64,000 nucleotides of DNA from Odoribacter sp. OttesenSCG-928-L07 (GTDB taxonomy: Bacteria > Bacteroidota > Bacteroidia > Bacteroidales > BM520). The notes beneath the pieces were generated by a model. That model was not told the origin of the DNA, made no database searches, and saw only the letters and a program-made list of their open reading frames with translations. This document shows, in pieces, positions 2,317 through 57,708 of the stretch (the stretch's first letter is position 1; every line of letters starts with the position of its first letter). Where the stretch lies: the NCBI GenBank assembly GCA_030265965.1, contig JAJDHA010000001.1, positions 65,394 through 129,393 on the forward strand, given 5' to 3'. Both the position numbers and the translations under genes were made by a program.

Positions 2317-2322
2317 TTCTAA

Positions 2323-2350
2323 GCCCCTAAATCCCCTAAAGGGGACTTTT
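2323..2350 (+). repeat. 28-nt hairpin element, copy 1 (GCCCCTAAATCCCCTAAAGGGGACTTTT)
   Basis: Starts 6 nt after the radA stop. TCCCC-TAAA-GGGGA hairpin followed by CTTTT. Near-identical copies at 35533, 60149(rc), 60508, 31784(rc) and 14681. Confidence 0.85.
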
Positions 2351-2380
2351 GGATACTACCAAATACAAAATAATTCTATG

Positions 2381-3758: not shown

Positions 3759-3792
3759 TGAAATAATTTAGAAATTGATGTGATAATGTGAT

Positions 3793-3825
3793 GATTTGAA
3801 GATTTGAAGATTTGAAGATTTGATT
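3793..3825. repeat. 8-mer tandem array (GATTTGAA)x4
   Basis: gatttgaa gatttgaa gatttgaa gatttgat read directly. Same unit at 14567-14598 and, as reverse complement, at 20225-20248. Confidence 0.9.
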
Positions 3826-3902
3826 GATTATCCCCATAGGGGATCCCGAACGGTAGCCCGAGAATTGCCAAAACGCCCCCGCACGCCGTAGGTGTGCGAC
3901 GA
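3826..3902 (+). repeat. 77-nt two-hairpin intergenic element, copy A
   Basis: GATTATCCCCATAGGGGATCCCGAACGGTAGCCCGAGAATTGCCAAAACGCCCCCGCACGCCGTAGGTGTGCGACGA. Hairpins are ATCCCC/GGGGAT and CGCACGCC/GGTGTGCG. Homologous copies at 14598(rc), 60249 and 60418(rc). Confidence 0.9.
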
Positions 3903-3915
3903 TATTGGAAAACAA

Positions 3916-4956
3916 TCACATCGAAAACCTCATTATCAACCGTTCCACTATTTGATAAAACAACCAAATGGCAATAAAAAATCCAGCCAAAGCTAATCCT
4001 ATTTTTAATATCCTTTTCTTTGGTTTGTCTAATGTTTTTTCATTACTTTGTGTAAAAAAATCAATATTGATATCAGATTTTTTGATTGATAGGGAAATGG
4101 TTCTTCCAAATATTAATGGATTATTATTAGAAATATGACCGGCGGGAAAATTGAAACATACCGGATAATTGTATCCTTCAACAGTTTCACGGATAATCTC
4201 TTCAGCTGTTTTTCCATAAGGTATTATGTTGTCGTTCATTTGGGAAACATCGCCGACAATTAAGGCTTTCAATTCGGATAGTTTTCCGGCGCGTTTTAAA
4301 CCCATCATCATTCTATCAATATGATAAAGATATTCGTCTAAATCTTCAATAAACAAGATTTTATTTCTGAGATCAACATCACAATTACTTCCGATTAATG
4401 AATAAAGTATTGAAAGGTTTCCGCCGACAATTTCTCCGGTGCATTCGCCTCCAATATTTAGCGGATTTTCTTCTTCGAGCTGTATGTTGTATTGTAACGA
4501 CTCGCCGAATAGTGTGTTTTTTATTCGGTTTAATGTTTCCTGCGGCGCATCTTTTAATGTTTTCATAACGGGTGCGTGCAAGCCTTCAATTCCATTCATA
4601 TTAAGTTTGGAAAGAAAGACTGTTATATCGCTGAATCCGACAATCCATTTAGGAGATGATAATAATGGAGAGAAATCAATTTGGTCGATTATTCTTACAC
4701 AGCCATAGCCACCGCGAGCGCAAAAAATAGCTTTGATTTCCGGATTGTTTATTGCCTCCTGAAAATCCTCAATACGTTGTTTATCAGTTCCGGCAAATTG
4801 ATTTTCCGATTCAAAAAGATTTTTTGAAAACACGATTCTCAGTCCCCACGATTGTAATATCTCAATGCTCTCGGATATTTCGCTCAAAGAAATTTTGCGT
4901 GCAGGAGCTACAATTGCGATTGAATCACCGGGTTTAAGATATGGGGGTGTGATCAT
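3916..4956 (-). CDS. ldcA: LD-carboxypeptidase (peptidase S66, LdcA-like) with C-terminal TM tail
   Basis: Nucleophile motif IVGFSDITV and His motif FPAGH. Extra C-terminal hydrophobic segment ILKIGLALAGFFIAIWLFYQIV. Confidence 0.85.
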   Translation of the reverse strand: MITPPYLKPGDSIAIVAPARKISLSEISESIEILQSWGLRIVFSKNLFESENQFAGTDKQRIEDFQEAINNPEIKAIFCARGGYGCVRIIDQIDFSPLLSSPKWIVGFSDITVFLSKLNMNGIEGLHAPVMKTLKDAPQETLNRIKNTLFGESLQYNIQLEEENPLNIGGECTGEIVGGNLSILYSLIGSNCDVDLRNKILFIEDLDEYLYHIDRMMMGLKRAGKLSELKALIVGDVSQMNDNIIPYGKTAEEIIRETVEGYNYPVCFNFPAGHISNNNPLIFGRTISLSIKKSDINIDFFTQSNEKTLDKPKKRILKIGLALAGFFIAIWLFYQIVERLIMRFSM

Positions 4957-4967
4957 GGTTTGATGTT

Positions 4968-5007
4968 GTTACGGGGTTAAGAAGTTACGAGGTTACGTGG
5001 TTAGAGT
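4968..5007. repeat. 8-mer tandem array (GTTACGNG)x5
   Basis: gttacggg gttaagaa gttacgag gttacgtg gttagagt. A related word, tacggggttaa, also occurs at ~35629. Confidence 0.75.
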
Positions 5008-6526: not shown

Positions 6527-9500
6527 TTAATGCTGAATAACAATACGTTCAGTTGTTGATTTTTTCTTGTTTCGAATCTGAATAAAGTACATTCCATGTT
6601 TATAGGAACTGATATTATGTTGAATAATTTCAACTTTTGAATTAAAGTTGGCATCAATTTCATCAATTAACTTTCCGGAAGTATCATAAATAGAAATATT
6701 AGTTTCGCCATCATAATTTTCAAATTTGATATTAATAATATCGTTTGCAGGATTAGGATAAATTGTGATATTCTCTCCATCAATATTATCTATAGATACA
6801 TGAGCATTCATTGTAATAGAAGTAATTGGAGAGCTGCCGCAATCATTAAAAGCCTGAACTGTAATAGTTCCGACATCTCTTGTTCTCACATATAAAGTAC
6901 ATACAGTTCCGTAATCATGAACAATATGCCATGGGGCATCATGTATTTCCCATTCATAATGAGTAGCCCCTTCTACAGGATCAATAGTATAAATAAATTC
7001 ACCGTTGAAAACATCGGATGAGAAAACACATTCTGTTTCTCCATGAATTTCTCCTATTTCCGTAATTTCTAATGCATTAATAACTTCTAAGTTAATTTCA
7101 TAAATACTATCGCAACGATTTGCTACTGTTTGGAGATGTGCAGTATATATTCCACTCTCTGTTAGTGATTGTCCATACCATAAATATGGCAGATCATTAG
7201 CACAAATGGTATCAAATGTTTCTATAAAATAAGATGGGAAGGTATATAATGTTAAATTAATAATACTATCACATCCGAATTGAGTTTTAAAAATTATCTC
7301 ATACAAACCTGGAGTCTCAATTATTGTGTCTCCATATGTGAGAGGTAATTCAGATTCACATAATCTTTTAACATCAGTGCCATAATAGCCTTGATTCATT
7401 TCTATCGTGATTGCATCAAAAAGATTTTGTCTGCAACCGTTAGCATCAAGCACATAAACTTCATAAGTTCCTGTGAAAAGATTAGTATATGTATAAGTTT
7501 CGTTATATGTTGGATCGCTATTAAACACTTGCCCTGAGTCCTTTTTCCAGCAGTAAATATACGGAGGTGTTCCACCCGATGCTTCTACAGTAATCTCTCC
7601 TCCGTTTCCACCTGAGCAACCATTGTTTACTTCAGCAAGATTAAGATATAGATTATTAGGTACTAATATATAAGTGTATGACCATTGGGAAGTATTACCT
7701 GCACAATCTTCATAAGTGAATGTGTATTTTCTTGTACCTTGACATGCTAAAGGATTAGGCTCATCTTCTTGTTCAATAGTTGGAGTAATAATATTATGGC
7801 AAGCATCATAAATTACAGGCAAAGGTGGAACAACAGCGTCAGCAATATTAGTAATTGTACTTTGCATATCTCCCGGCACAGATGGTCCAACTGATGGAGC
7901 TACATTATATGTATATGTCCATTCTGCGGTATGACCTGCAACATCAGTAAATTCATATCTATATACGCGAGTACCGATACATGTAATTGGGTTAGGTTCA
8001 TCAGTATATCCCAAATATTGAGGATTGTTTAGCAATATACCACATTGGTCATATACTGCAGGAAGTAGATGAGTTGGAGTAACAACATCAGACAAGCAAT
8101 TTACTGTTACATTTCCTGGCTCAGTACTAATGATTAATTCTTCAGGTCCGGTAATATTAAAAGTATAAGTCCATGGTGCAGAATTACCAGCGCAATCATA
8201 ATAAGTATAATGATATGTTGCAGTTCCGGCATAAACGAAAGGAGTAGGATTATAAACAACATTATTGTAAACTATATTAGTAATAGTATCTCCACAATAA
8301 TCAAAGACTACAGGAAGTAAATCATCAGGTTTATAAGCATCGGATTTACAAAGAACTGTTTCTTCTCCTGGCTCTGCTGTCATTTCAAATTGAGGCATTT
8401 CAATTATATACCTGTAACGCCAATCAGCTTCAAAGCCTGCACAATCAGTATAAGTATAAACGTATTCTACGTATCCATTACAATCAGATGCAGGTATTGT
8501 ATCTGTTAATTCGAATGTATTGCTTATATCATTGTCGCAATAGTCGTAAACAGGAGGCATAACACTTGGGGTAATTGTATGAGGAAGAACAGAAGCCAAA
8601 TCAAGGCATTCGATAATGGTATCTCTATAATTCTCTGTTATAATAAATTGTTGAGGAACGATATTATATTTATATTGCCATTCAGCTTCAAGTCCAACAC
8701 AATTAGCAAATGTATAAGTGTATGTAACAGATCCTTGACAATTTAATGTATCATAATCTACATTAATATTCTCGTATTCTTCGATAATGTTTCCGCAATA
8801 ATCAGTTACATTCGGCATCACACTTGGCTCTGTATTATGAGGTTCAATCAGAGCTGCAGATATACAACTTACAGTCTTTTCCATATCTTGATTAATAGTA
8901 AAAGGCTCTGCAGTTAAATAGTAGGTGAAAACCCAGTTTTCCTCAAATCCGTTGCAATTTATGTATGTGCATGTATATACTCGTGTACCTTCACAAGTGA
9001 TATCATGTGGAGTGTCAAGGGGTTCGGAGATAATAGGATTTGTTATAACATTACCGCAAGCATCTTCAACAACAGGAAGATATTGCCATGGCTCTACCAT
9101 TTCGCTCTTACAACTAACATTAGCAGAATTTTGTCCGCCGGTAAAAGTTAATGTATTAGGCATAACAATATTAAATACATGTTCCCAAACAGCTGTATTA
9201 CCGGCACAATCTCTATATGTATATTTATATGTTCTGCTTCCGTTGCATGCTAAAGGTTTAGGGTCATCAACAATTTCAAGTTTTATATCTGTAATATCAT
9301 TACCACAAGCATCTTGTTCTCCCGGTGGAGTGGGTGGGTCAATATCAGCTATACAGTCAACAGTACTTAAACCAAAAGTAGTATTGATAGTAAATGGCTC
9401 TCTTTCAACTTGAAATACGTAGTTCCAATCGGCAGTATGACCAGCGCAGTCAGTATATCTATATACGTAAGTACGTGTTCCGTTACATGTAAATCCGGGA

Positions 9501-12106
9501 GGATTGTTTATGATATTCTTCTGAAAAACATTTGTAATAGGATTACCACAAGCATCATTAATTTGAGGTATTTCAGCTATAGGATCATAAATTTCGCTTA
9601 TACAAGAAACTGTATTGTAATATGTTGGGTATATTTCTTCGTCAATTACAAGTTCAGGAACTTTTACTTGAAAGATATAGTCCCAATCGGCATAATTACC
9701 TGCGCAATCGAAATAACGGAAAGTGTATGTTACAGTTCCTTCACAAGTAAAGTTTGATTCAGGCGGATTATATGTAGTTGATAAAAGTTGAGGTGAATCA
9801 ATGGTAACTCCACAATTAACCATGATAGGTTCTAACTCATTAACCGGATTATATACACCATCTAAACAATCTACAGTAACAATAGTTGGCGGCTTTGTTA
9901 TTACAAGTTCGGGCATTATATGATATGTGAATGTCCATTCTGCTGTTTCGCCGTTACAATCGGTATAAAAATAAGTGTAGGTTTTTGTCCCGCTGCATGT
10001 TAATGTCCCAGGGATACTGCTAACGCTTGGTGCTGAAGGAGTAAGAATATTACCACAAGCATCTCGAATAGTAGGGATAGTGGTTGGAGGGTTAGCGGCA
10101 TCACTTACACATTTTACATAAGCAACTCCGGGTGCTGCTGTAATTACCAATGGAGGTATTTCCACATGAAATGTAAAATTCCAGACTGCAGTGTCTCCGG
10201 TGCAGTCATAAAATGTGTAATGATAAGTGCGATCTCCATTACAGGTTATTGGACCGGTTGGAGTATAGCCTGTACATATTATAGTAGTAATTTCATTTCC
10301 ACAACCATCGACTATTCCATTCGGTATAAATGAATCTGGCTGAAAAACATCACTTGGACAATTTACCGTTGTATCTCCATCTGCAAAAGTAGGTTGAAAT
10401 GACGGCATATCCTCTATTTTATAAGTATAAGTCCAATTCTTAGTATTTCCTGCGCAATCGGTGTAGGTATAAACATATTTACGTGTACCTTCACATGTTA
10501 ATGGAGAAGGACTATCAATTGTATCTGTTAGTTGGATATCAGTAATAATGTTTTCACAAAAGTCGGGGACATTATCAGGTGGAGTTGGTTCAACCATTTC
10601 ATAGATACAACCAACTAAAACCGGATCAGGATCGTCGGGCAAAGTAAATGTGGGGGGAACTACATTAAAAATGTAATTCCATGTAGCAGAGTTTCCCGAA
10701 CAATCATAGTATGTGTATTCATATCTTCGTGAGCCTGCACATGTAAGCAAGCCATCCGGTTCTTCAAAAATACCGGTAGGAACTGTAGGTTTTGTTACTT
10801 CACCTCCGCATGTATCATATACTGTAGGAAGCATATCAGATGTAGGCATTACTATATCATCAACACAGTTTACAGTAACTACCGTATCCGGTACATTGAT
10901 AACGAAAGTAGAAGCGGTTCCAATAATATATGTACATTCCCATACTTTATTATTACCCAAACAATCATCAAATCGGTAAGTGTATGTTCTGGTACTATTA
11001 CATGTTAATGGAGTCTGGCTGTCAACATAACCCAATAAGGTGTGGGGTATTCTTGATCCGCAAATAGTATCATAAATAACCGGAAGTATCGGTGGAACCG
11101 GCTCAGTAACCTCAGATGGGCAACCAACAGTAATATCAACATGATTTCCGTCAGGTAGCTCAAATCCAGGTGGATTAATATTGTAAGTATATCTCCATAT
11201 CTCTTCATGACCGGAGCAAGGATCGGTGTAAGAATATTCGAAAATACGAGTGCCGGCACATAAAAGTGGATTAGGGTTGTCTATAATAGAAAGTAGAACA
11301 GGTGGAATACTATCACCACAATCATTAGGAACAACAGTGAGTGGTGGTGGAACAGCTTGGGCTATACACTCAATATCTTTCGGATCCGGATCCGGATTAA
11401 TTGTAAAAGGAGGTCTCGTTAATATAATATTTTGTGAGATGGTTGTTGAATTACCGCAAGCATCTGTAATAGTATATATTCTTGTAATTTCTGATTGGCA
11501 TGCATTTTCAGGACGATCTATATGTGTAACAGTAAATAGGTCACTATCTATTGAACAATTATCGGTAATAGCCAAACCAAATGATGCAATCAAGGAAGCA
11601 ATATTATCTTCTGCGGGATAAATAGTTACAAGATCATCAGGGTGGCAGCCTTCAAGAAATTGAGCTGATAAAGTGCCGGTAATAGTAGGTGGTTCATTGT
11701 CTTCTACGATGAAAGTTGTTTGAGCGGCAGCTGTATCTCCATCGGCATCTATTATGGTAACCGAAATATTGTAGGTTCTATTACAAGTTTCAGGTGCAAT
11801 GGTTAATGTAGCTACCAAATCATTAGAGCTTTTTATTGCACCAATCCATTGTACGGAATAATCAGGAGTCGGTGTCCCAGTAATGTTAGCTGTAAAGGTA
11901 ACCATACCTCCGGCAATTGCATTAGAACAAATAGGACTTGTTTCGGAAGCAGTAATTGTAACTGTAAAATCAGCCCGCGAATCCGATTTTCCAAAAACAT
12001 TTTCTTTATCAGGATTGTTTAAAGAATTATTATTGGCAAAAGTGTTAGTGCATGTAATAAACATTAGCATTAACACAGAAAAAAATGATAACAAAAACTT
12101 TTTCAT
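6527..12106 (-). CDS. Giant T9SS-sorted cell-surface repeat protein (adhesin-like)
   Basis: 1859 aa with a signal peptide. About 16 tandem ~85-aa modules with 4 conserved Cys (..V.C....P...LP.V.D.CGN.I........P..C.GTR.Y.Y.YTDCAGN...W.YTF.V). SprB-type repeat GGEITVEASGGTPPYIYCW. Type-A Por C-terminal sorting domain ENITIYPNPANDIINIKF...IVIQH. Confidence 0.9.
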   Translation of the reverse strand: MKKFLLSFFSVLMLMFITCTNTFANNNSLNNPDKENVFGKSDSRADFTVTITASETSPICSNAIAGGMVTFTANITGTPTPDYSVQWIGAIKSSNDLVATLTIAPETCNRTYNISVTIIDADGDTAAAQTTFIVEDNEPPTITGTLSAQFLEGCHPDDLVTIYPAEDNIASLIASFGLAITDNCSIDSDLFTVTHIDRPENACQSEITRIYTITDACGNSTTISQNIILTRPPFTINPDPDPKDIECIAQAVPPPLTVVPNDCGDSIPPVLLSIIDNPNPLLCAGTRIFEYSYTDPCSGHEEIWRYTYNINPPGFELPDGNHVDITVGCPSEVTEPVPPILPVIYDTICGSRIPHTLLGYVDSQTPLTCNSTRTYTYRFDDCLGNNKVWECTYIIGTASTFVINVPDTVVTVNCVDDIVMPTSDMLPTVYDTCGGEVTKPTVPTGIFEEPDGLLTCAGSRRYEYTYYDCSGNSATWNYIFNVVPPTFTLPDDPDPVLVGCIYEMVEPTPPDNVPDFCENIITDIQLTDTIDSPSPLTCEGTRKYVYTYTDCAGNTKNWTYTYKIEDMPSFQPTFADGDTTVNCPSDVFQPDSFIPNGIVDGCGNEITTIICTGYTPTGPITCNGDRTYHYTFYDCTGDTAVWNFTFHVEIPPLVITAAPGVAYVKCVSDAANPPTTIPTIRDACGNILTPSAPSVSSIPGTLTCSGTKTYTYFYTDCNGETAEWTFTYHIMPELVITKPPTIVTVDCLDGVYNPVNELEPIMVNCGVTIDSPQLLSTTYNPPESNFTCEGTVTYTFRYFDCAGNYADWDYIFQVKVPELVIDEEIYPTYYNTVSCISEIYDPIAEIPQINDACGNPITNVFQKNIINNPPGFTCNGTRTYVYRYTDCAGHTADWNYVFQVEREPFTINTTFGLSTVDCIADIDPPTPPGEQDACGNDITDIKLEIVDDPKPLACNGSRTYKYTYRDCAGNTAVWEHVFNIVMPNTLTFTGGQNSANVSCKSEMVEPWQYLPVVEDACGNVITNPIISEPLDTPHDITCEGTRVYTCTYINCNGFEENWVFTYYLTAEPFTINQDMEKTVSCISAALIEPHNTEPSVMPNVTDYCGNIIEEYENINVDYDTLNCQGSVTYTYTFANCVGLEAEWQYKYNIVPQQFIITENYRDTIIECLDLASVLPHTITPSVMPPVYDYCDNDISNTFELTDTIPASDCNGYVEYVYTYTDCAGFEADWRYRYIIEMPQFEMTAEPGEETVLCKSDAYKPDDLLPVVFDYCGDTITNIVYNNVVYNPTPFVYAGTATYHYTYYDCAGNSAPWTYTFNITGPEELIISTEPGNVTVNCLSDVVTPTHLLPAVYDQCGILLNNPQYLGYTDEPNPITCIGTRVYRYEFTDVAGHTAEWTYTYNVAPSVGPSVPGDMQSTITNIADAVVPPLPVIYDACHNIITPTIEQEDEPNPLACQGTRKYTFTYEDCAGNTSQWSYTYILVPNNLYLNLAEVNNGCSGGNGGEITVEASGGTPPYIYCWKKDSGQVFNSDPTYNETYTYTNLFTGTYEVYVLDANGCRQNLFDAITIEMNQGYYGTDVKRLCESELPLTYGDTIIETPGLYEIIFKTQFGCDSIINLTLYTFPSYFIETFDTICANDLPYLWYGQSLTESGIYTAHLQTVANRCDSIYEINLEVINALEITEIGEIHGETECVFSSDVFNGEFIYTIDPVEGATHYEWEIHDAPWHIVHDYGTVCTLYVRTRDVGTITVQAFNDCGSSPITSITMNAHVSIDNIDGENITIYPNPANDIINIKFENYDGETNISIYDTSGKLIDEIDANFNSKVEIIQHNISSYKHGMYFIQIRNKKKSTTERIVIQH

Positions 12107-12526: not shown

Positions 12527-14566
12527 ATGAATAATTTTAAAAGATATACAGTAACAACTGCTTTGCCGTATGCAAACGGTCCTTTACACATTGGCCACCT
12601 TGCCGGAGTATATATTCCTGCTGATATTTATGTCAGATATTTGAGATCTATCGGCACGGATGTGGTATTTATCGGCGGCTCTGACGAACATGGAGTGCCT
12701 ATAACTATTAAAGCTAGAAAAGAAGGTGTTACCCCGCAGGATATAGTGGATAGATATCACAATATTATTAAGAAATCTTTCGCGGAATTTGGAATATCTT
12801 TTGACGTTTATTCGCGCACATCAAACGAAATACATAAAGAAACGGCATCGGAGTTTTTCCTCAAATTGTATAATGACGGAAAACTTATTGAAGATACGGA
12901 AGAACAATATTATGATGAGGAAGCTAAACAGTTTCTGGCGGATAGATACATTACAGGAACTTGTCCGATTTGCGGAAACCCAAAAGCTTACGGCGACCAA
13001 TGCGAAAGCTGCGGCACTTCTTTGAATGCTCGAGATTTGATTGAGCCTAAATCTACAATTAGCGGTAGCGCTCCTATTTTAAGAGAAACAAAACATTGGT
13101 ACTTGCCTTTGGATAGATATGAAGATTGGCTCAAAGAATGGATCTTAAACGAACATAAAGAATGGAAGGTTAATGTTTATGGTCAATGTAAGTCGTGGCT
13201 TGATGCCGGACTACATCCGCGTGCTGTTACCCGCGATCTTGATTGGGGAGTGAAAGTGCCTCTGAAAGATGCAAACGGTAAAGTACTTTATGTCTGGTTT
13301 GATGCACCGATCGGTTATATTTCTGCTACAAAAGAATTGACTAATGATTGGGAAAAATATTGGAAAGATAAAGATACACGATTAATACACTTCATTGGTA
13401 AAGATAATATTGTATTTCACTGCATTATTTTCCCAACAATGTTGAAAGCAGAAGGCTCTTATATTCTTCCCGACAACGTTCCTGCCTTTGAGTTTTTAAA
13501 TTTAGAAGGTGACAAAATATCTACATCCAGAAATTGGGCAGTATGGTTACACGAATATCTTGTAGATTTTCCGGATAAACAAGATGTGCTGAGATATGTT
13601 CTTACAGCAAATGCACCCGAAACAAAGGATAATGACTTCACTTGGAAAGATTTCCAAACAAAAAATAACAGCGAACTTGTCGCTATTTTCGGAAATTTTA
13701 TTAATAGAACTTTAGTGCTGACACAAAAATATTTCGATGGCTTTGTTCCTCCAAGAAATAAATTTGAAGAAATTGATATTTCTACTTTGGAAGAGCTGAA
13801 ATGTATTCCTACAAGAATTGAAAATAGTCTTGATAATTTCAAATTCAGAGAATCTTTGAGCGAGATGATGAGTCTTGCTCGACTTGGTAATAAATATCTT
13901 ACAGAAACAGAACCGTGGAAAACTTTCAAAGACAATCCTGAACGTGTGCAAACGGTTTTGAATATTGCTCTTCAAATATGCGCAAATCTTGCTGTTGTTT
14001 CAGCGCCATTTTTGCCTTTCACATCTGAAAAAATATTCAGAATGTTGAACTTGCCGAGTATGAAATGGTTTAAAGCCGGTAATACCGACCTTCTTGAGCC
14101 TGAACATAAACTCGGAGAACCTGTTCTACTTTTCGAAAAAATTGAAGATAAAGATATTGAATATCAAATCAACAGATTGGAACAAATAAAAACCGCTAAT
14201 GATAAAGAAAGCGAAGAAATCAAAGTGTCTCCACAAAAAGAAACAATTTGTTTTGATGATTTCGTGAAAATAGATATTAGAACCGGAAAAATACTTGAAG
14301 CTGAAAAAGTTCCAAAAGCTAACAAACTGCTCAAACTAAAAATAGATACCGGTATTGATATCCGTACTGTAGTCTCAGGAATCGCCGAATTTTACAATCC
14401 GGAAGAAATAATCGGACAAAATGTTAGTATTCTCGTGAATCTTGCCCCAAGAAATCTACGCGGAATAGAATCCGAAGGAATGATTTTAATGGCAGAAAAC
14501 AGCGAAGGAAAACTTTGTTTTGTCTCCCCAATAGAAGATTTCAATCCCGGCAGCGAAATCAAATAA
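12527..14566 (+). CDS. metG: Methionine--tRNA ligase
   Basis: HIGH-type PLHIGHL, Zn knuckles CPICG/CESCG, KMSKS-type KISTSRN, C-terminal Trbp111/EMAP-like tRNA-binding domain. Confidence 0.95.
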
Positions 14567-14598
14567 TTTGAAGATTTGAAGATTTGAAGATTTGATGA
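14567..14598. repeat. 8-mer tandem array (TTTGAAGA)x4 starting at the first nt after the metG stop
   Basis: tttgaaga tttgaaga tttgaaga tttgatga. Confidence 0.9.
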
Positions 14599-14668
14599 AA
14601 CCTACGGCGTGCGGGGGGGTGTTGGCAATTATCGGGCTACCGTTCGGAATCCCCTATGGGGATAATCA
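14598..14668 (-). repeat. 77-nt two-hairpin element, copy B (reverse orientation, outer arm of the GC hairpin truncated)
   Basis: The reverse complement reads GATTATCCCCATAGGGGATTCCGAACGGTAGCCCGATAATTGCCAACACCCCCCCGCACGCCGTAGGTTT. Confidence 0.85.
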
Positions 14669-14680
14669 TCTCATCATTTT

Positions 14681-14705
14681 GCCCCTAAATCTAAAGGGGG
14701 CTTTT
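14681..14705 (+). repeat. 28-nt hairpin element, degenerate copy
   Basis: gcccctaaatctaaagggggctttt. Confidence 0.6.
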
Positions 14706-14726
14706 GTATTTTCATCAAATCTTCCC

Positions 14727-14774
14727 CACATCATCATATCACCTAATTATCACATCACCACATCATCACATCAC
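14727..14774. repeat. CATCA/CATCAC low-complexity tract
   Basis: cacatcatcatatcacc...atcacatcaccacatcatcacatcac. Related GATG/GTGATG tracts at 3771-3795, 35728-35745, 60114-60143 and 60551-60575. Confidence 0.7.
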
Positions 14775-20207: not shown

Positions 20208-20224
20208 TGAAATGACAACCCAAT

Positions 20225-20248
20225 CTTCAAATCTTCAAATCATCAACC
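20225..20248. repeat. 8-mer array (TCTTCAAA)x2 plus a degenerate unit; reverse complement of the TTTGAAGA family
   Basis: tcttcaaa tcttcaaa tcatcaac. Overlaps the deoC stop codon and its last codons. Confidence 0.8.
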
Positions 20249-28116: not shown

Positions 28117-28164
28117 ATATAATTTTTTAAAATATGCAAGTTTTTTGTTGTAAAAAGCTTGAAA

Positions 28165-28227
28165 GTGACGGGTGACGGGTGACGAGTGATGGGTGACGAG
28201 TGACGGGTGACGGGTGACGAGTGACGG
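28165..28227 (-). repeat. Heptamer array 1: (GTCACNC)x9 on the minus strand
   Basis: The + strand reads gtgacgg gtgacgg gtgacga gtgatgg gtgacga gtgacgg gtgacgg gtgacga gtgacgg. Lies 14 nt downstream of the tRNA-methyltransferase stop. Confidence 0.95.
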
Positions 28228-28241
28228 ATTCTGTCATATTG

Positions 28242-28940
28242 CTAAATCAACAAATCACCAATAATATCATTATACTTTTCATCTCCAATAACAAATCTGT
28301 CATTAATTCGTTCTTCCTTATTTTTTTGAAATACTAAAATCATTCTTTTCGGATTTTCATCGTTTCCTTTAGAAAATATTTCAACAGTTTGATTGCAAAA
28401 TAATCCCTCAATCAAAGCGGTTCGTATAAATCCGCGCGCTTCGGATGTGGGAAGAATACAAATAAATTTACCTTCTTTGCTCATTAATTCTTCAACGCAA
28501 AATGCAAGAACATTAAACGGCAGATTATCATTATGTCGCGCTAAATCTTTTAATTGATTTCCCGACTTTAAAGAATTTTCAAAATACGGTGGATTGGATA
28601 TTATTAAATCAAATTTCTTTTTGTGATTTTGATGAAAATTTTGCAATGAAATATGTTTTGTTTCCATTCTATTGCTCCAAGGAGAATTGATGAAATTTTC
28701 TGTTGCCTCATTAAATGAATTTTCATCAATATCTATAGCAGTGATTTCTGCGTTTGGAAACTTTTGTGCTGAGATAAGCGCAAGAACTCCGCAACCTGTT
28801 CCGATATCTAAAATTTTTGAAATGTTTTCTTTGTCGGCAATAAGTTTTGATAGATATCCTCCGAGTACTACGGCATCTGTACCTACTCTCATTGTACTCT
28901 TCGAATGCGAAAGTTCAAATTGTTGGAATTTAAAAATCAT
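28242..28940 (-). CDS. tRNA1(Val) (adenine37-N6)-methyltransferase-like (YfiC/TrmN6 family)
   Basis: SAM motif ILDIGTGCGVLAL; N6-adenine MTase motif IISNPPYF. Confidence 0.75.
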   Translation of the reverse strand: MIFKFQQFELSHSKSTMRVGTDAVVLGGYLSKLIADKENISKILDIGTGCGVLALISAQKFPNAEITAIDIDENSFNEATENFINSPWSNRMETKHISLQNFHQNHKKKFDLIISNPPYFENSLKSGNQLKDLARHNDNLPFNVLAFCVEELMSKEGKFICILPTSEARGFIRTALIEGLFCNQTVEIFSKGNDENPKRMILVFQKNKEERINDRFVIGDEKYNDIIGDLLI

Positions 28941-33798: not shown

Positions 33799-35589
33799 CT
33801 ATTCGAAATAATAAGTTTTATCTTTTATTTTCTTTTTCAGAATATCTGAAGCCTCATCTGGATTAGATTCGTAAGCTTTTTCCCAATATTCGAGCGCTTT
33901 GGTTGCTTCATTAAGTTTCCATTTTGTGTCTCCGAGATGTTCAAGGATTACGGTTCTGTCGTCGCCATCGTACTTTAATGCCTCTTCCAAATATCTCTCA
34001 GCTTCTTTATAATTTCCTCTCATAAACAATGCCCAAGCGTAAGTGTCTAAATAATAAGAACTTTTCGAATTTAGCTCCACCGCTTTCTTTCCCATTTCCA
34101 CCGCTTTATCCAAACTCATATTTGAAGTACTTAAATAATAGCTGTAATTATTAAGTAAATATGCGTTATCATAATTTAGTGCCAGCGATTTGTCATAATT
34201 ATCGAATGCCTCAGTTTTATTATTGAGCTGATAATAACAGTCGCCCAACATCATATAAAAATCAGCTTTAAGCAGGTCGTTATCCACAATCATAATTGAG
34301 CCTGTTTTCAGAGTTGAGATAGCTCCTTCATAATCCTTTTCAATATATTTTGCTAAGCCGTTGTAATAATAAAACTCCGGAATTAACGGGTACAATTCAA
34401 TTGCTTTATTCGATAAACTTATTATTGAGTCGTAGTTGTTGATTGTTGATTCAATGTAAATTAGGTTCAAATAAACAGAAGGATTACTCAATCCTAATTC
34501 GCGAGTTTTGTAAAAACCTTGTTTTGCCATTCCAATCTGATTATTCTGCAGATAGAAATCACTGAGCATCGCAAGCGACACAGGGTCTTCGGGGTGAGTA
34601 TCGCTAATTGTTAATAATAGTTCAAATGCTTCGCGATTATTGGTGGTATAAATTTCTTCGTAAGAGTAATATTTGAGAAATATTGAGATTTTAGTTTTTG
34701 CATCTAATTCAGGAGATGCGAATCCTAACATTAATTCTTCATAAGCCCTTGTATCGTTTTTAGATTTTCTGTAATATTCTGAAAGAGTGATATGAACGTA
34801 TGGATTGTTTGGTTCCATTTCAGCAATCTTATTATAACATTCTAAAGCTTCTTTTTCTTTTCCGTAATTCAAATATAGTTCAGCAAGCATTGAAATGTAT
34901 TTTGTATTGTTTGGATAAGCATCACAAAGTCGTTTCATTTCCGCTATAGCTTTATTTTTTTTATTTTGAAGATCATAAATTCTAGCAATCTTCATACTTA
35001 TCTCCTCGTTAATGCCCATAACTTCTTCCAATTTTGCCAACTGTTTTAAAGTCTCATCATAATTAGTTGTAAGAAGTAAAGCATTTGTATAATTAAATAC
35101 TGCTTCGATATTTGTTGGGTCTAATTCAATAATTTTTTTGTGCAGAGCGAGTTCTTCCTTATTTGCCGGTGTTGTGCTAATTAAGCTAACAAGGTTCATT
35201 AAATAGAAAACATTCTTATTATTGAGTTCAACAGCTTTTCTTGCAGCTTCAACAGCGCCTTCAGTATTGTATTTTAAAAGATATAATTGCGAAAGTTCGT
35301 AATATGCTGCGTCATTATTCTGGTCAAGTTTTATTGCCTGTTCAAATAATTTAATGGCATTATCAGTATCCCCAGTTATCTTTGCTGCAACAGCATCAAT
35401 AAAAACAGAAGTTTTTTTAATTTCTTCCGCCGTCATTGGTGTAGAATTAAGGTCGACTGGAATTTTTACTTGTGCTAATAATGAGTTACAAGTGAAAAGT
35501 ATTGCAAATAAAAGAGTTGTTAAGATTCTTATGCCCCTAAATCCCCTAAAGGGGACTTTTTGATATTTTATTATTGTAAAATTTGTCAT
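33799..35589 (-). CDS. Tetratricopeptide-repeat protein
   Basis: Multiple TPR units (A..YYELSQLYL..., A...Y.KA.E..P.N). The N-terminal signal-like segment is preceded by residues encoded by a 28-nt repeat element. Confidence 0.8.
   Translation of the reverse strand: MTNFTIIKYQKVPFRGFRGIRILTTLLFAILFTCNSLLAQVKIPVDLNSTPMTAEEIKKTSVFIDAVAAKITGDTDNAIKLFEQAIKLDQNNDAAYYELSQLYLLKYNTEGAVEAARKAVELNNKNVFYLMNLVSLISTTPANKEELALHKKIIELDPTNIEAVFNYTNALLLTTNYDETLKQLAKLEEVMGINEEISMKIARIYDLQNKKNKAIAEMKRLCDAYPNNTKYISMLAELYLNYGKEKEALECYNKIAEMEPNNPYVHITLSEYYRKSKNDTRAYEELMLGFASPELDAKTKISIFLKYYSYEEIYTTNNREAFELLLTISDTHPEDPVSLAMLSDFYLQNNQIGMAKQGFYKTRELGLSNPSVYLNLIYIESTINNYDSIISLSNKAIELYPLIPEFYYYNGLAKYIEKDYEGAISTLKTGSIMIVDNDLLKADFYMMLGDCYYQLNNKTEAFDNYDKSLALNYDNAYLLNNYSYYLSTSNMSLDKAVEMGKKAVELNSKSSYYLDTYAWALFMRGNYKEAERYLEEALKYDGDDRTVILEHLGDTKWKLNEATKALEYWEKAYESNPDEASDILKKKIKDKTYYFE
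35533..35560 (+). repeat. 28-nt hairpin element copy inside the annotated 5' end of the TPR gene
   Basis: gcccctaaatcccctaaaggggactttt, identical to copy 1. Confidence 0.85.
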
Positions 35590-35744
35590 AATTGTTAATA
35601 TTCAATTGTAAATGGATCGCTACGCTTGTACGGGGTTAAATGTGTAATGCCTGCTGCATTTTATCCATTTTATCCATCTCTATATTCCGATCCGTCTAAA
35701 TTTTTGCGTTAAATAGCACATTTGCTAATCATCACATCATCAAA

Positions 35745-36176
35745 TCATACTCCCGTAGATCCAAATCCGCCTTCGCCTCTCGAAGTTTCGTCGAGATTAT
35801 CAACAAGATTCCAGTCGGCTCTTTCGTGTTTGCTGATTATCATTTGAGCTATTCTGTCGCCGTCATTAATGACAAACGTTTCTTTTGATAGGTTTATTAT
35901 TATTACGCAAATTTCACCACGGTAGTCGGCATCGATTGTGCCGGGAGAATTTAAAACAGTTATTCCTTTTTTGATTGCGAGTCCGCTACGTGGTCTAACT
36001 TGCGCTTCGAAACCTTTGGGTAGAGAGATAAATAATCCGGTTGGAATTAAAGTTCTTTCCAGCGGTTCCAAAGAAATCGGACTTTCTAAGTTGGCACGTA
36101 AATCCATTCCTGCCGAAAACTCAGTTTCGTATTCCGGAAGATTGTGTTTTGATTTGTTGATAATGTTTATTTTCAT
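35745..36176 (-). CDS. dut: dUTP diphosphatase
   Basis: Motifs [16 protein letters not shown] and [10 protein letters not shown]. Start moved to MKINII because the longer track ORF starts inside the heptamer array. Confidence 0.93.
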
Positions 36177-36193
36177 TGATTTGATTTTTTTGA

Positions 36194-36256
36194 GTGACGA
36201 GTGACGAGTGACGAGTGACAAGTGACGAGTGACAAGTGACGAGTGACAAGTGACGA
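36194..36256 (-). repeat. Heptamer array 2: (GTCACTY)x9 on the minus strand
   Basis: The + strand reads gtgacga x3, gtgacaa, gtgacga, gtgacaa, gtgacga, gtgacaa, gtgacga. Ends 17 nt from the dut ATG. Confidence 0.95.
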
Positions 36257-36277
36257 ATAATCATTGTGAGTATTCAT

Positions 36278-36412
36278 TTTATCGACTTTATCGGCTTTAT
36301 CGGCTTTATCAGTTTTATCCATTTTATCGGCTTTATCGGCTTTATCGGCTTTATCAGTTTTATCCATTTTATCGATTTTATCGGCTTTATCCATTTTATC
36401 CACTTCATCCGA
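36278..36412 (-). repeat. 9-mer array 1: (NNNGATAAA)x15 on the minus strand
   Basis: The + strand reads tttatcgac, tttatcggc x2, tttatcagt, tttatccat, tttatcggc x3, tttatcagt, tttatccat, and so on. Shows a higher-order 36-45-nt period. Overlaps the flippase stop codon. Confidence 0.95.
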
Positions 36413-41948: not shown

Positions 41949-42029
41949 ATGGATAAAGTCGATAAAACGGATAAAATGGATAAAGTCGATAAAATGGATA
42001 AAACGGATAAAGTCGATAAAATAGATATT
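41949..42029 (+). repeat. 9-mer array 2: (NNNGATAAA)x9
   Basis: atggataaa gtcgataaa acggataaa atggataaa gtcgataaa atggataaa acggataaa gtcgataaa atagatatt. 27-nt super-period. Starts 5 nt after the alaS stop. Confidence 0.95.
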
Positions 42030-42042
42030 ACAATGTTTACTC

Positions 42043-42119
42043 GTCACCCGTCACCCGTCACTCGTCACCCGTCACCCGTCACTTGTCACCCGTCACCCGT
42101 CACCCGTCACTCATCACCC
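42043..42119 (+). repeat. Heptamer array 3: (GTCACYC)x11
   Basis: gtcaccc x2, gtcactc, gtcaccc x2, gtcactt, gtcaccc x3, gtcactc, atcaccc. 21-nt super-period. Confidence 0.95.
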
Positions 42120-42127
42120 AAATAAAC

Positions 42128-42135
42128 TAATTTTG
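42128..42135 (+). promoter_or_regulatory. -7 box TAATTTTG upstream of the PASTA-domain gene
   Basis: Exact TAnnTTTG match, 8 nt after the heptamer array and 49 nt upstream of the ATG at 42185. Confidence 0.45.
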
Positions 42136-55624: not shown

Positions 55625-55708
55625 GTCACACGTCACCCGTCACACGTCACACGTCACGCGTCACACGTCACCCGTCACGCGTCACACGTCACCCGTCACC
55701 CGTCACCC
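55625..55708 (+). repeat. Heptamer array 4: (GTCACNC)x12
   Basis: gtcacac gtcaccc gtcacac gtcacac gtcacgc gtcacac gtcaccc gtcacgc gtcacac gtcaccc x3. Starts 8 nt after the fabD stop. Overlaps the ribF stop and last codons on the other strand. Confidence 0.95.
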
Positions 55709-57620: not shown

Positions 57621-57636
57621 CGAAATAAAATTTTTG

Positions 57637-57708
57637 TGACCTCGGAGGGATTCGAACCCCCACCTCAAGAACCGGAATCTTGAATTCTATCCATTTAACT
57701 ACGAGGCC
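57637..57708 (-). tRNA. tRNA-Arg (anticodon CCG)
   Basis: Folded by hand into a cloverleaf: acceptor GGCCTCG/CGAGGTC, anticodon stem CAAGA/TCTTG with loop TTCCGGT, T-arm GGGGG-TTCGAAT-CCCTC, discriminator A, no encoded CCA. Confidence 0.9.

What the first reader, a model, noticed from the sequence alone, without database searches (positions are those of the whole stretch)
28165..28227. Heptamer arrays (GTCACNC)n at four gene ends, always C-rich on the sense strand of the upstream gene
Nine in-phase 7-nt units lie here. The same GTCAC core forms arrays at 36194-36256 (9 units), 42043-42119 (11 units) and 55625-55708 (12 units). In all four loci the C-rich reading GTCACNC is on the sense strand of the gene that stops 8-140 nt upstream (tRNA methyltransferase, flippase, alaS, fabD). 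The arrays would therefore be transcribed as 63-84-nt C-rich, G-poor tails in an otherwise AT-rich genome. That composition and length match what is known of Rho-utilisation (rut) sites, so modular Rho-dependent terminators are one testable idea. Protein-binding arrays and slippage-prone tracts are alternatives. Each array has its own variant at unit positions 6-7 (C/T here and at 42 kb, T at 36 kb, A/G at 55 kb). This points to local expansion and homogenisation rather than transposition of one fixed element. I do not recognise this as a described repeat family.
Basis: partly seen in the sequence, partly recalled or inferred. Interest (0 to 1): 0.72.

Follow-up and report, generated by a model that had tools for sequence, protein, structure and literature searches.

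The report
Heptamer microsatellite arrays at gene ends
Four runs of a 7-base repeat (GTCACNC) just after genes in an uncultured Bacteroidales genome are real, but they belong to a known, fast-evolving class of bacterial microsatellites, are missing from the nearest relatives, and show no good evidence of being Rho terminators.

Summary
There are four in-phase (GTCACNC)n arrays of 9, 9, 11 and 12 units (37 two-unit matches against 0.08 expected). In each, the C-rich strand is the sense strand of the gene upstream.

The Rho-terminator reading is not supported:
- In 119 GTCAC-array loci from many phyla, orientation between co-directional genes is 17 (C-rich sense) to 27 (opposite). Fifteen of these loci are in cyanobacteria, which lack Rho.
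- Array 2 ends 14 nt before the dut start codon, where relatives have a 10-nt operon junction.
- Relatives with conserved gene order (FabD 84% and 78%, AlaS 85% and 80% identical) have no array at any of the sites compared. They carry ordinary hairpins or short spacers there instead.
- A 94% relative has different arrays after alaS.
- Ten of 47 gene ends in the window carry some 7-9-nt array flush with the stop codon, and most of these are not C-rich.

Best reading: these are lineage-specific heptanucleotide microsatellites of the STRR / long-SSR class. They expanded in the only permissive intergenic slots and were occasionally copied between loci; loci 2 and 3 share a 9-mer array, a homologous spacer and the 7-mer array. 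Two things remain unexplained: the invariant GTCAC core, and a polarity in which the array sits flush against stop codons.

The parts
28163..28227 (-). Array 1: 9 heptamer units (GTCACTC/GTCACCC, one ATCACTC, last GTCACTT). It starts 14 nt after the stop of the methyltransferase gene (28242-28940) and ends about 23 nt upstream of the rimP promoter -33 TTG.
   Evidence: Same 9 units in an independent contig, L225, with one substitution (unit 3, C to T at position 7) as the only difference in 1827 nt.
36192..36256 (-). Array 2: 9 heptamer units (GTCACTT/GTCACTC, with a 14-nt super-repeat). It ends 14 nt before the dut ATG (36177).
   Evidence: TRF reports a period-14 repeat at 98% identity.
36257..36274 (-). 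Spacer between the 9-mer and 7-mer arrays at locus 2, homologous to the spacer at locus 3. The homologous stretch ATGAATACTCACAATGATTATTC also takes in the adjoining array edges on both sides.
   Evidence: About 74% identity to the locus 3 spacer; 4-6 of 20000 random or shuffled pairs reach the score. Flank test p=0.0024.
36275..36410 (-). 9-mer array (GATAAANNN, about 14 units). Its first, degenerate unit contains the TGA stop of the flippase gene (36405-36407).
41949..42027 (+). 9-mer array (GATAAANNN, about 9 units), starting 5 nt after the alaS stop.
42028..42042 (+). Spacer of locus 3 (the homologous stretch ATAGATATTACAATGTTTACTC also takes in the adjoining edge of the 9-mer array), homologous to that of locus 2.
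42043..42119 (+). Array 3: 11 heptamer units (GTCACCC/GTCACTC/GTCACTT, last ATCACCC). It ends 8 nt before a TAATTTTG -7 box (42128-42135) that is conserved in the 85% relative, which has no array.
55625..55708 (+). Array 4: 12 heptamer units (GTCACAC/GTCACCC/GTCACGC, with a 21-nt super-repeat). It fills the whole fabD-ribF convergent spacer. It starts 8 nt after the fabD stop and supplies the last 3 codons and the TGA of ribF (55696-55698).
   Evidence: Identical unit order in three other samples.

Best explanation
The four tracts are non-coding heptanucleotide microsatellites. They belong to the long-SSR class that includes cyanobacterial STRRs, Xanthomonas GGGAATC arrays and TAACTGA arrays. 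They arose recently in this Bacteroidales lineage. Shown: they are perfect head-to-tail 7-nt arrays with 14- and 21-nt super-repeats. They are absent from syntenic relatives, replaced by other arrays in the closest relative, and accompanied in the same window by 8-mer and 9-mer arrays at equivalent positions. Inferred: they grow by slipped-strand mispairing or unequal exchange of one to three units. They persist only where a 60-230-nt insertion does no harm, which means right after a stop codon and before the next promoter, or between convergent stops. They are passively transcribed as 3' or intercistronic RNA. The in-window strand rule is most simply explained by small numbers plus tolerance. 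The GTCAC reading has no stop codons and gives unstructured RNA, so it is harmless next to a downstream start. The GTGAC reading has TGA in all three frames and folds, and it is the reading found flush with stop codons. At least once a whole composite (9-mer array, spacer, 7-mer array) was copied to a second locus, by an unknown route. I infer no dedicated function. Any effect on termination or mRNA stability would be incidental.
For: Arrays and super-repeats. The window has 15.6 short-period arrays per 100 kb against 3.9 in 1.19 Mb of other Bacteroidota, where period 7 is the commonest class but none of 25 heptamer arrays is GTCAC-type. Orthologous sites: the fabD-ribF spacer in the 84% and 78% relatives holds hairpins and no array. 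There are no GTCAC arrays in about 20 kb around the gene in 16 loci. The alaS-PASTA and flippase-dut spacers in the 85% and 80% relatives are 61/22 nt and 145/10 nt, with no arrays. The rimP upstream region in the 71% relative has a conserved promoter and leader but no array. The 94% relative has (GATGATTT)3 plus (TTCACTT) of at least 4 units after alaS instead. Gene-end placement is general: 10 of 47 gene ends have a 7-9-nt array within -20 to +14 nt of the stop. These include G-rich and A/T-rich units after metG, dut, deoC and the SAM-hydroxide adenosyltransferase gene. Across phyla, convergent spacers outnumber divergent ones 35 to 11 (p=5e-4), there is no orientation rule between tandem genes (17 vs 27), and degenerate 7-periodic flanks occur on both sides. 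[quoted passage not shown] Heptamer assemblages in Bacteroidetes that relatives lack, and contigs that break at them, are also reported (PMC4679880). The paralogous composite is shown.
Against: Pure slippage does not explain why GTCAC (positions 1-5) is almost invariant while position 6 takes all four bases. Sixteen of 18 minor-variant units differ at positions 6-7 and none at 2-5. It also does not explain why the same core recurs at four loci in 64 kb and in many phyla. No unit-number polymorphism was seen. Array 4 is identical in 3-4 samples and array 1 in 2, although these may be one strain. At loci 1 and 4 the array occupies the place where relatives have a terminator hairpin, and no hairpin is left. 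This is what a functional replacement would look like. The strong polarity (GTCAC-3' end flush with a stop codon, median 6.5 nt, against 109 nt at the other end, p=2e-8) is only partly explained by tolerance arguments. My gene calls in the 119 loci are heuristic ORFs, not curated annotation.
Confidence: 0.6

Rival explanations
1. Modular Rho-dependent terminators or attenuators. Transcribed as (GUCACNC)9-12, the arrays give Rho a 63-84-nt C-rich, G-poor, unstructured loading site with a YC dinucleotide every 7 nt. Transcription stops downstream of the array.
For: Composition is C 38-52% and G 13-17%, with 16-29 YC dimers per array. The C-rich RNA of arrays 1-3 folds at 0 to -4.7 kcal/mol, less stable than shuffles. 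In the window the C-rich strand is sense for the upstream gene 4 times out of 4. At loci 1 and 4 no hairpin terminator is present, whereas relatives have one at the corresponding gene ends. Bacteroidota encode Rho (PMC11347177).
Against: Array 2 ends 14 nt before the dut ATG with no recognisable promoter in between, and the same junction is 10 nt in a relative. dut must therefore be read through the array. Orientation between tandem genes in 119 loci is 17 C-rich-sense to 27 opposite. Fifteen of the loci are cyanobacterial, and cyanobacteria lack Rho (PMC13289151). The arrays are absent from syntenic relatives at the sites compared, so there is no long-term selection for them. Array 4's C-rich RNA does fold (-13.9 kcal/mol, z -2.1). 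Other arrays in the same positions in this window are G-rich or A/T-rich on the sense strand. In-window orientation is confounded with a gene-strand and GC-skew switch near 39 kb.
Confidence: 0.12
2. Protein-binding heptad arrays. A sequence-specific DNA-binding protein polymerises on contiguous GTCAC heptads, one dimer per 7 bp, as the ribbon-helix-helix omega/ParB protein of pSM19035 does on WATCACW heptads. The array would act as an insulator, a nucleoid anchor or a centromere-like site.
For: The 7-bp register is exact, with 9-12 contiguous units and an almost invariant 5-bp core next to two free positions. Omega binds 7-10 consecutive 7-bp WATCACW repeats and needs at least 4 contiguous ones (PMC9499535). 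The TCAC core is shared, and ATCAC variants occur in arrays 1 and 3. The core recurs across phyla with all kinds of NN.
Against: The match to WATCACW is only 4-5 of 7 positions. All units here are direct, whereas omega sites mix direct and inverted heptads. Arrays are depleted between divergent genes, where promoters and operators lie (11 against 35 convergent). They are absent from close relatives. No candidate binding protein was found next to any array, although small ORFs were not searched exhaustively. The cross-phylum recurrence of the GTCAC core is partly imposed by my search pattern.
Confidence: 0.1
3. Non-autonomous mobile or otherwise copied composite elements. Arrays travel between loci as part of a larger unit (9-mer array, spacer, 7-mer array) and then diverge locally.
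For: Loci 2 and 3 have the same architecture, order and orientation, and a homologous 22-nt spacer. The window also holds other dispersed intergenic modules next to 8-mer arrays.
Against: No terminal inverted repeats, target-site duplications or transposase were seen. Arrays 1 and 4 share no flanks with the others. This explains dispersal but not what the arrays do. It is compatible with the best explanation rather than exclusive of it.
Confidence: 0.1
4. G-quadruplex or i-motif forming structural repeats, as shown for GGGAATC / GGGGA(C/T)T arrays.
For: GGGTGAC units give G3 tracts with 4-nt loops. Arrays 1, 3 and 4 have 5-8 G3 tracts, and relaxed-loop G4 motifs exist in arrays 1 and 3. The positional asymmetry is the same as reported in PMC4692102.
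Against: No array has a canonical four-tract motif with loops of 7 nt or less. Array 2 has no G3 tract at all. The hypervariable position 6 is exactly the one that makes or breaks the G3 tract.
Confidence: 0.04
5. Contingency (phase-variation) loci. Unit gain or loss changes expression of the downstream gene.
For: Arrays 1-3 lie upstream of the next gene. Array 1 is about 23 nt from the rimP -33 element and array 3 is 8 nt from a -7 box.
Against: The neighbouring genes are housekeeping genes (rimP-nusA-infB, dut, PASTA, ribF). The arrays lie outside the -33/-7 spacer and outside coding sequence. Unit number and order are identical in 2-4 samples.
Confidence: 0.04

Closest known systems
Cyanobacterial STRR (short tandemly repeated repetitive) heptanucleotide arrays. 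Three tandem heptanucleotides of Calothrix PCC 7601 are cited in PMC4692102. The unit sequences CCCCAGT, TTGGTCA and CAACAGT are from my own knowledge.
   Same: Head-to-tail 7-nt units, dispersed at many intergenic loci, one or a few preferred units per genome, function unknown. The genome scan found GTCACTG (= CTGGTCA) arrays in Scytonema and GTCACCT arrays in Anabaena, Trichormus and Sphaerospermopsis. These are one base away from STRR2 in cyclic register.
   Different: The unit sequence differs. The host is a 34% GC Bacteroidales bacterium, not a heterocystous cyanobacterium. Here the arrays are combined with 9-mer arrays at two loci.
GGGAATC (Xanthomonas) and GGGGA(C/T)T (Nostoc) heptamer repeats, Rehm et al. 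2015, PMC4692102
   Same: [quoted passage not shown] Length and sequence vary between close species, and neighbouring genes are housekeeping genes. I reproduce the same asymmetry for GTCAC arrays.
   Different: Those arrays prefer four units and form G-quadruplexes. The arrays here have 9-12 units and no canonical G4 motif, and one has none at all. In Xanthomonas most repeats sit between the same genes in two species. Here they are absent from relatives.
TAACTGA direct repeats of Beggiatoaceae, cyanobacteria and five Bacteroidetes, MacGregor 2015, PMC4679880
   Same: A genome-specific preferred heptamer. The unit contains stop codons. Long arrays and mixed heptamer assemblages occur in Bacteroidetes intergenic regions that the closest relatives lack, and short-read contigs end in them.
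   Different: In the Beggiatoa genome most TAACTGA sets (2-6 copies) lie a few nt upstream of start codons in forward orientation, which suggested translational control. Here only array 2 is next to a start, and copy numbers are higher.
Omega (ParB) heptad operators / parS of plasmid pSM19035, PMC9499535
   Same: 7-bp period, 7-10 contiguous units, TCAC core. This is a proven mechanism in which one RHH dimer binds per heptad and at least 4 contiguous units are needed.
   Different: The consensus is WATCACW, not GTCACNC. Omega sites mix direct and inverted heptads, overlap promoters and are plasmid-borne in Firmicutes. Here no cognate protein is known, and the arrays are chromosomal, all direct and placed at gene ends.
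Rho utilisation (rut) sites
   Same: C-rich and G-poor, largely unstructured, about 60-85 nt of RNA downstream of a stop codon.
   Different: Natural rut sites are not perfect tandem repeats. Here one array precedes a gene that must be expressed, the orientation is not general, and there is no conservation in relatives.

Membership tests
Heptameric simple sequence repeat (long SSR / STRR-like class) | Head-to-tail copies of a 7-nt unit without spacers | tested here: met
   TRF period 7, 9.0-11.7 copies, 85-89% matches, 0% indels. Units in register.
Heptameric simple sequence repeat (long SSR / STRR-like class) | Same unit dispersed at several non-coding loci of one genome | tested here: met
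   Four intergenic loci in 64 kb. None of 25 heptamer arrays in 1.19 Mb of other Bacteroidota is GTCAC-type.
Heptameric simple sequence repeat (long SSR / STRR-like class) | Presence and length vary between close relatives | tested here: met
   Absent from the 71-85% relatives at the sites compared. Different arrays after alaS in the 94% relative.
Heptameric simple sequence repeat (long SSR / STRR-like class) | Unit-number polymorphism within a species (slippage) | tested here: inconclusive
   Array 4 has identical order in SRR29082273, SRR29082287 and SRR29082290 and in the window. Array 1 has 9 units in both sources, with one substitution. The samples may hold one strain, and short-read contigs show only the majority form.
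Cyanobacterial STRR1-3 in the strict sense | Unit CCCCAGT, TTGGTCA or CAACAGT (own knowledge) in heterocystous cyanobacteria | tested here: not met
   The unit is GTCACNC and the host is Bacteroidales. The nearest match is GTCACTG = CTGGTCA in Scytonema, one mismatch from STRR2.
Rho-dependent terminator (rut site) | C>G, at least about 60 nt, little RNA structure on the transcribed strand | tested here: met
   C 38-52%, G 13-17%. MFE 0, -4.7 and -1.7 kcal/mol for arrays 1-3. Array 4 is -13.9 kcal/mol (z -2.1).
Rho-dependent terminator (rut site) | Consistent sense orientation relative to the terminated gene | tested here: not met
   True 4 of 4 in the window, but 17 against 27 in 119 loci, and the opposite reading is the one flush with stop codons.
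Rho-dependent terminator (rut site) | Downstream gene does not depend on read-through | tested here: not met
   Array 2 ends 14 nt before the dut ATG. The junction is 10 nt in relative L222.
Rho-dependent terminator (rut site) | Rho-dependent RNA 3' ends | not testable with these tools
   No transcriptome data are available for this organism.
Omega/ParB-type heptad operator | Consensus 5'-WATCACW-3' | tested here: not met
   The units are (C)GTCAC(N). Only TCAC, and in two units ATCAC, match.
Omega/ParB-type heptad operator | At least 4 contiguous 7-bp units | tested here: met
   9-12 contiguous units. Requirement taken from PMC9499535.
Omega/ParB-type heptad operator | Cognate RHH protein encoded with the sites | not tested
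   Pfam scans of 20 neighbouring proteins showed none. Small ORFs and the rest of the genome were not searched.
G-quadruplex-forming heptamer repeat (Rehm et al.) | Four or more G3 tracts with short loops | tested here: not met
   No canonical motif in any array, and zero G3 tracts in array 2.
REP / MITE-type dispersed element | Palindromic or terminal-inverted-repeat structure | tested here: not met
   The arrays are direct repeats. The C-rich strand does not fold. No shared flanks except between loci 2 and 3.
Known RNA family (Rfam) | Match at gathering score | tested here: not met
   Only tRNA-Arg at 57637-57708 was found in the window.

The most novel reading that the evidence does not exclude
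GTCAC-core heptad arrays are a cross-phylum cis-element read in 7-nt register by a sequence-specific factor. The factor could be a polymerising DNA-binding protein of the omega/RHH kind. It could instead be an RNA-binding factor such as Rho or a cold-shock-type OB-fold protein acting on (GUCACNC)n. In this genome the arrays would then have functionally replaced hairpin terminators at gene ends. This would explain the invariant 5-nt core beside a free position 6, the 9-12-unit size, the loss of hairpins at loci 1 and 4, and the polarity towards stop codons.
Probability: 0.12. Interest if true: 0.7.

Novelty: new member of a known kind. Interest (0 to 1): 0.3.

Why it matters
Heptamer arrays are the over-represented long-microsatellite class in many bacteria. 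More than thirty years after the STRRs were described, nobody knows why seven, why each genome favours its own unit, how a unit reaches many loci, or whether the arrays do anything. This window adds a clean case in Bacteroidales:
- Four arrays have syntenic array-free relatives, which dates them as recent.
- Two paralogous composites show that arrays can be copied between loci together with flanking sequence.
- A core-versus-variable-position pattern exists that slippage alone does not predict.
- A cross-phylum data set reproduces the 'flush with the stop codon' polarity reported for other heptamers.

If the arrays turned out to be terminators or protein-binding platforms, they would be a new kind of modular gene-end signal. 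On present evidence they are more likely tolerated, self-expanding DNA. In practice they also break short-read assemblies exactly at gene ends.

Tried and rejected
1. Assembly artefact: rejected. The same units appear in independent NCBI and Logan contigs.
2. Orthology through a metagenome scan with AlaS: the best hits were only 55-60% identical. They were used only as a Bacteroidota background. Closer relatives came from the protein searches.
3. blastn of the 119 loci against the window: only array-to-array matches and one hairpin module, no orthologous genes.
4. Shared flanks for arrays 1 and 4: none (p 0.07-0.98).
5. The 9-mer array in other loci: none found.
6. G-quadruplex: no canonical motif.
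7. DnaA boxes or oriC. The 9-mer TTTATCCAC resembles TTATCCACA, and a strand switch lies near 39 kb. There were 91 matches against 99.9 expected, with no cluster. Rejected.
8. GTSAC as an avoided or favoured pentamer: 26 occurrences outside the arrays against a median of 53 for same-composition pentamers. Unremarkable.
9. tRNA or Rfam elements at the arrays: none.
10. Coding potential: the GTCAC reading is open in all frames, but no array lies inside a credible gene. The TTG-start ORF 35745-36221 merely runs into array 2, and dut starts at ATG 36177.
11. Intrinsic terminators at the arrays: the consensus scan found none there. The one hairpin near array 1 lies in the rimP leader.
12. Exact look-up of the PASTA protein, to reach array 3 in other samples: not on record.
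13. Literature search for the unit in tandem: 0 papers.
Full report
**What is there.**
The window is 34% GC. It comes from an uncultured Bacteroidales bacterium; identical FabD and RimP proteins are named by NCBI as 'Bacteroidales bacterium OttesenSCG-928-K03'. Four perfect-phase heptamer arrays are present:

| Array | Coordinates | GTCAC strand | Units |
|---|---|---|---|
| 1 | 28163-28227 | - | 9 |
| 2 | 36192-36256 | - | 9 |
| 3 | 42043-42119 | + | 11 |
| 4 | 55625-55708 | + | 12 |

A two-unit pattern matches 37 times against 0.08 expected. Independent assemblies carry the same units, so the arrays are real DNA.

**Anatomy and context.**
- Array 1 starts 14 nt after the stop of an MTS-type methyltransferase gene. 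It ends about 23 nt upstream of a Bacteroidetes-type promoter for rimP-nusA-infB (TTG-N20-TATTTTTG, 28139-28109 on the - strand).
- Array 2 follows the Polysacc_synt flippase gene and ends 14 nt before the dut ATG (36177).
- Array 3 follows alaS and ends 8 nt before a TAATTTTG -7 box (42128-42135) of the PASTA-domain gene.
- Array 4 fills the whole spacer between convergent fabD and ribF. It begins 8 nt after the fabD stop and supplies the last three codons and the TGA of ribF.
- At loci 2 and 3 the heptamers are preceded by a second array of 9-mers (GATAAANNN; 36275-36410 and 41949-42027). These begin at, or 5 nt after, the stop codon.
- The roughly 22-nt spacer between the 9-mer and 7-mer arrays is about 74% identical at the two loci. 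Only 4-6 of 20000 random or shuffled pairs score as well. Loci 2 and 3 are therefore paralogous copies of one composite, not independent local expansions. Arrays 1 and 4 share no flanks with the others.

**Unit structure.**
Of the 41 units, positions 2-5 never vary and position 1 varies twice (G to A). Position 6 takes C, T, A and G, and position 7 is C or T. The only difference between the window and an independent 1827-nt contig spanning array 1 is a C-to-T change at position 7 of one unit. Super-repeats of 14 nt (array 2, 98% identity) and 21 nt (arrays 3 and 4) show multi-unit duplication.

**The window is generally rich in short tandem arrays.**
It has 15.6 arrays of at least 4 copies (period 5-12) per 100 kb. 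The figure is 3.9 in 1.19 Mb of other Bacteroidota sampled through alaS. In that background period 7 is the commonest class, but none of the 25 heptamer arrays has a GTCAC core. Ten of 47 gene ends in the window have a 7-9-nt array within -20 to +14 nt of the stop codon. These include (TGAAGATT)n after metG and deoC, (TGATGTGG)n after a SAM-hydroxide adenosyltransferase gene, and (TGATGATT)n after dut. Most of these are G-rich or A/T-rich on the sense strand. Placement at gene ends is therefore a property of all array families here, not of the C-rich one.

**Elsewhere.**
They come from Bacteroidota, Ignavibacteria, Chlorobi, Cyanobacteria (15 loci), Planctomycetes, Verrucomicrobia, Acidobacteria, Chloroflexi, Proteobacteria, Firmicutes and Actinobacteria, and nearly every NN occurs. 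I called ORFs heuristically and oriented each array with GTCAC on top:

| Flanking genes | Count |
|---|---|
| Convergent | 35 |
| Both opposite to GTCAC | 27 |
| Divergent | 11 |
| Array inside an ORF (always GTCAC-sense) | 20 |

- Convergent against divergent gives p=5e-4.
- In the Bacteroidota/Chlorobi/Ignavibacteria subset the tandem split is about 7 to 8, counting the window.

A strong polarity appeared. When a gene's sense strand reads GTGAC, its stop codon lies a median of 6.5 nt from the array (41 of 72 within 10 nt). When it reads GTCAC, the median is 109 nt (p=2e-8). In many loci a native TAA or TAG sits 0-6 nt before the first unit. In others the TGA of unit 1-3 is the stop. Both flanks keep residual 7-nt periodicity, slightly more on the slack side (0.40 against 0.36; control 0.27).

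**Relatives.**
Gene order is conserved in genomes whose FabD is 84% and 78% identical and whose AlaS is 85% and 80% identical.
- *fabD-ribF spacer.* It is 112 or 51 nt and holds an ordinary hairpin. There is no array there, and no GTCAC array of 3 or more units anywhere in about 20 kb around the gene in 16 loci.
- *alaS-PASTA spacer.* In the 85% relative it is 61 nt, and its -7 box and leader are homologous to the sequence just downstream of array 3. In the 80% relative, alaS is followed after 22 nt by a different gene.
- *flippase-dut spacer.* It is 145 nt in one relative and 10 nt in the other.
- *rimP upstream region.* In a 71% RimP relative the promoter and leader hairpin are about 93% conserved. 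The upstream gene there is rpmE, which has a classic intrinsic terminator, and there is no array.
- *Closest relative (AlaS 94%, upstream flank about 99% identical).* alaS ends inside a (GATGATTT)3 array. This is followed by (TTCACTT) of at least 4 units up to the contig end. The same site thus carries different arrays.
- *Within the species.* Array 4 has the same 12 units in the same order in three other samples, and array 1 has the same 9 units in one other.

The arrays are young and lineage-specific. They turn over between sister lineages, yet they are not visibly hypervariable within the sampled population.

**The Rho hypothesis.**
The physical prerequisites are met. C is 38-52% and G is 13-17%, with a YC dinucleotide at least every 7 nt. 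The C-rich RNA of arrays 1-3 is essentially unstructured (0 to -4.7 kcal/mol, z +0.7 to +2.0), whereas the G-rich reading folds at -15 to -41 kcal/mol. Bacteroidota have Rho (PMC11347177). At loci 1 and 4 no hairpin terminator remains.

Several results count against it:
- Array 2 sits in an operon junction 14 nt before dut.
- The orientation rule fails outside the window.
- The same arrays are common in cyanobacteria, which lack Rho (PMC13289151).
- Non-C-rich arrays occupy the same positions in this window.
- The in-window orientation cannot be separated from a gene-strand and GC-skew switch near 39 kb. I found no oriC signal there.

I rate Rho-dependent termination as a possible incidental effect, not as the explanation.

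**What it is most likely.**
The literature describes this class. Heptamers are the over-represented long SSR in many bacteria. GGGAATC and GGGGA(C/T)T arrays show the following features (PMC4692102):
- They are intergenic and depleted between divergent ORFs.
- They lie 0-50 bp from, or overlap, the stop codon with the G-rich strand on the coding strand.
- They are mostly transcribed.
- They vary between close species.
- Their function is unknown.

TAACTGA arrays occur in Beggiatoaceae, cyanobacteria and Bacteroidetes. In Bacteroidetes, long mixed heptamer assemblages lie in spacers that the closest relatives lack, and contigs end in them (PMC4679880). The arrays here fit that class feature by feature. 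No paper in the library holds this unit in tandem.

I therefore read them as self-expanding heptanucleotide microsatellites. They persist where an insertion is harmless: right after a stop codon and before the next promoter, or between convergent stops. The comparison with the 85% relative shows exactly this for array 3. They are occasionally copied to new loci.

**What this does not explain.**
Three things remain open: the invariant GTCAC core beside a freely varying position 6, the recurrence of the core in many phyla, and the polarity towards stop codons. Part of the cross-phylum recurrence is imposed by my search pattern. A mechanistic analogue exists for a sequence-specific reader in 7-bp register. 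The omega/ParB protein of pSM19035 binds 7-10 contiguous WATCACW heptads, one dimer each (PMC9499535). However, the consensus, the mixed heptad orientation and the promoter location of that family are not matched here. I keep it as a rival at low probability.

**Verdict.**
The Rho-terminator model, the claim of purely local origin and the claim of an undescribed kind are not supported. This is a new member of a known, functionally unexplained class, and interest is modest.

Noticed in passing
window 3789-3823, 14566-14595, 20222-20246 (TGAAGATT family); 14726-14774 (TGATGTGG on the - strand); 35727-35748 (TGATGATT on the - strand); 60112-60143; 4968-5003: Several families of 8-mer tandem arrays are rich in TGA on one strand. 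Most lie flush with, or overlap, a stop codon (metG, SAM-hydroxide adenosyltransferase gene, deoC, dut). The 4968-5003 array ends 11 nt before a start codon. The same (GATGATTT)n overlaps the alaS stop in relative L219.
   Followed up: partly
window 14600-14691 (+), 60427-60518 (+), 3824-3902 (-), partial copy at 60231-60281: A dispersed structured module of about 90 nt (ACCTACGGCGTGCGGGGGGGTG...GGAATCCCCTATGGGGATAATC...) occurs in 3-4 copies at 86-94% identity, next to 8-mer arrays. The array lies at different ends and on different strands relative to the module. There is no Rfam match. It looks like a REP/MITE-like family.
   Followed up: partly
window 2320-2355, 35530-35565, 60505-60540 (+), 60147-60175 (-); L020 5887-5911: A hairpin module, CCCCTAAATCCCCTAAAGGGGACTTT(T), occurs four times in the window, once 4 nt after a stop codon, and looks like an intrinsic terminator. 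The same 25 nt is 100% identical in a Prolixibacteraceae MAG, where it lies beside a GCAGTGG heptamer array.
   Followed up: partly
window 28139-28034 (- strand); L223 about 3900-4000: The rimP-nusA-infB leader consists of a TTG-N20-TATTTTTG promoter followed by a hairpin and U-run (28073-28042), 8 nt before the rimP ATG. The whole block is about 93% conserved in a relative whose RimP is only 71% identical. This fits a NusA-autoregulated attenuator.
   Followed up: partly
window 36275-36410 and 41949-42027: The 9-mer arrays (GATAAANNN) flank, in inverted orientation, a 5.5-kb block (flippase, MerR, M23 peptidase, alaS) whose gene order is unchanged in relatives. Some units resemble a DnaA box (TTATCCAC), but there is no enrichment or clustering of DnaA-box-like 9-mers in the window.
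   Followed up: yes
L001, L002, L003, L219, L224, L226, L227 (contig ends): Public short-read contigs of this species end inside or at the arrays, so genes next to arrays sit at contig edges in the NCBI MAG GCA_030266115.1 and in Logan assemblies. This is a practical cause of fragmentation.
   Followed up: yes
window 6527-12106 (-): This gene encodes a 1859-aa protein with 15 HYR_4C repeats, SprB and PKD-like domains and a Por_Secre_tail (T9SS cargo). Its internal 250- and 500-nt DNA periodicity accounts for several direct-repeat families in the window.
   Followed up: partly
window 57636-57708 (-): The only tRNA in the window is tRNA-Arg(CCG). It overlaps the 5' end of the mechanically listed TTG-start ORF 56637-57668, so the asd gene must start further downstream.
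   Followed up: no
L203 10877-10988; L205 10877-10927: Relatives have a hairpin between convergent fabD and ribF (AGGATTAAAATCCT, and GTTGTGGCGGC...CACAAC). In the window the array occupies this spacer completely, and no hairpin is left.
   Followed up: yes
loci L004-L122 (e.g. L004, L005, L011, L014, L044, L113, L117): Many GTCAC arrays are bordered by arrays of one-base variants (GTGAACA, GTGAGAA, GAATAAC and others). In 20 loci the array lies inside a long ORF in the GTCAC reading, where it would encode heptapeptide repeats. These were not examined further.
   Followed up: no
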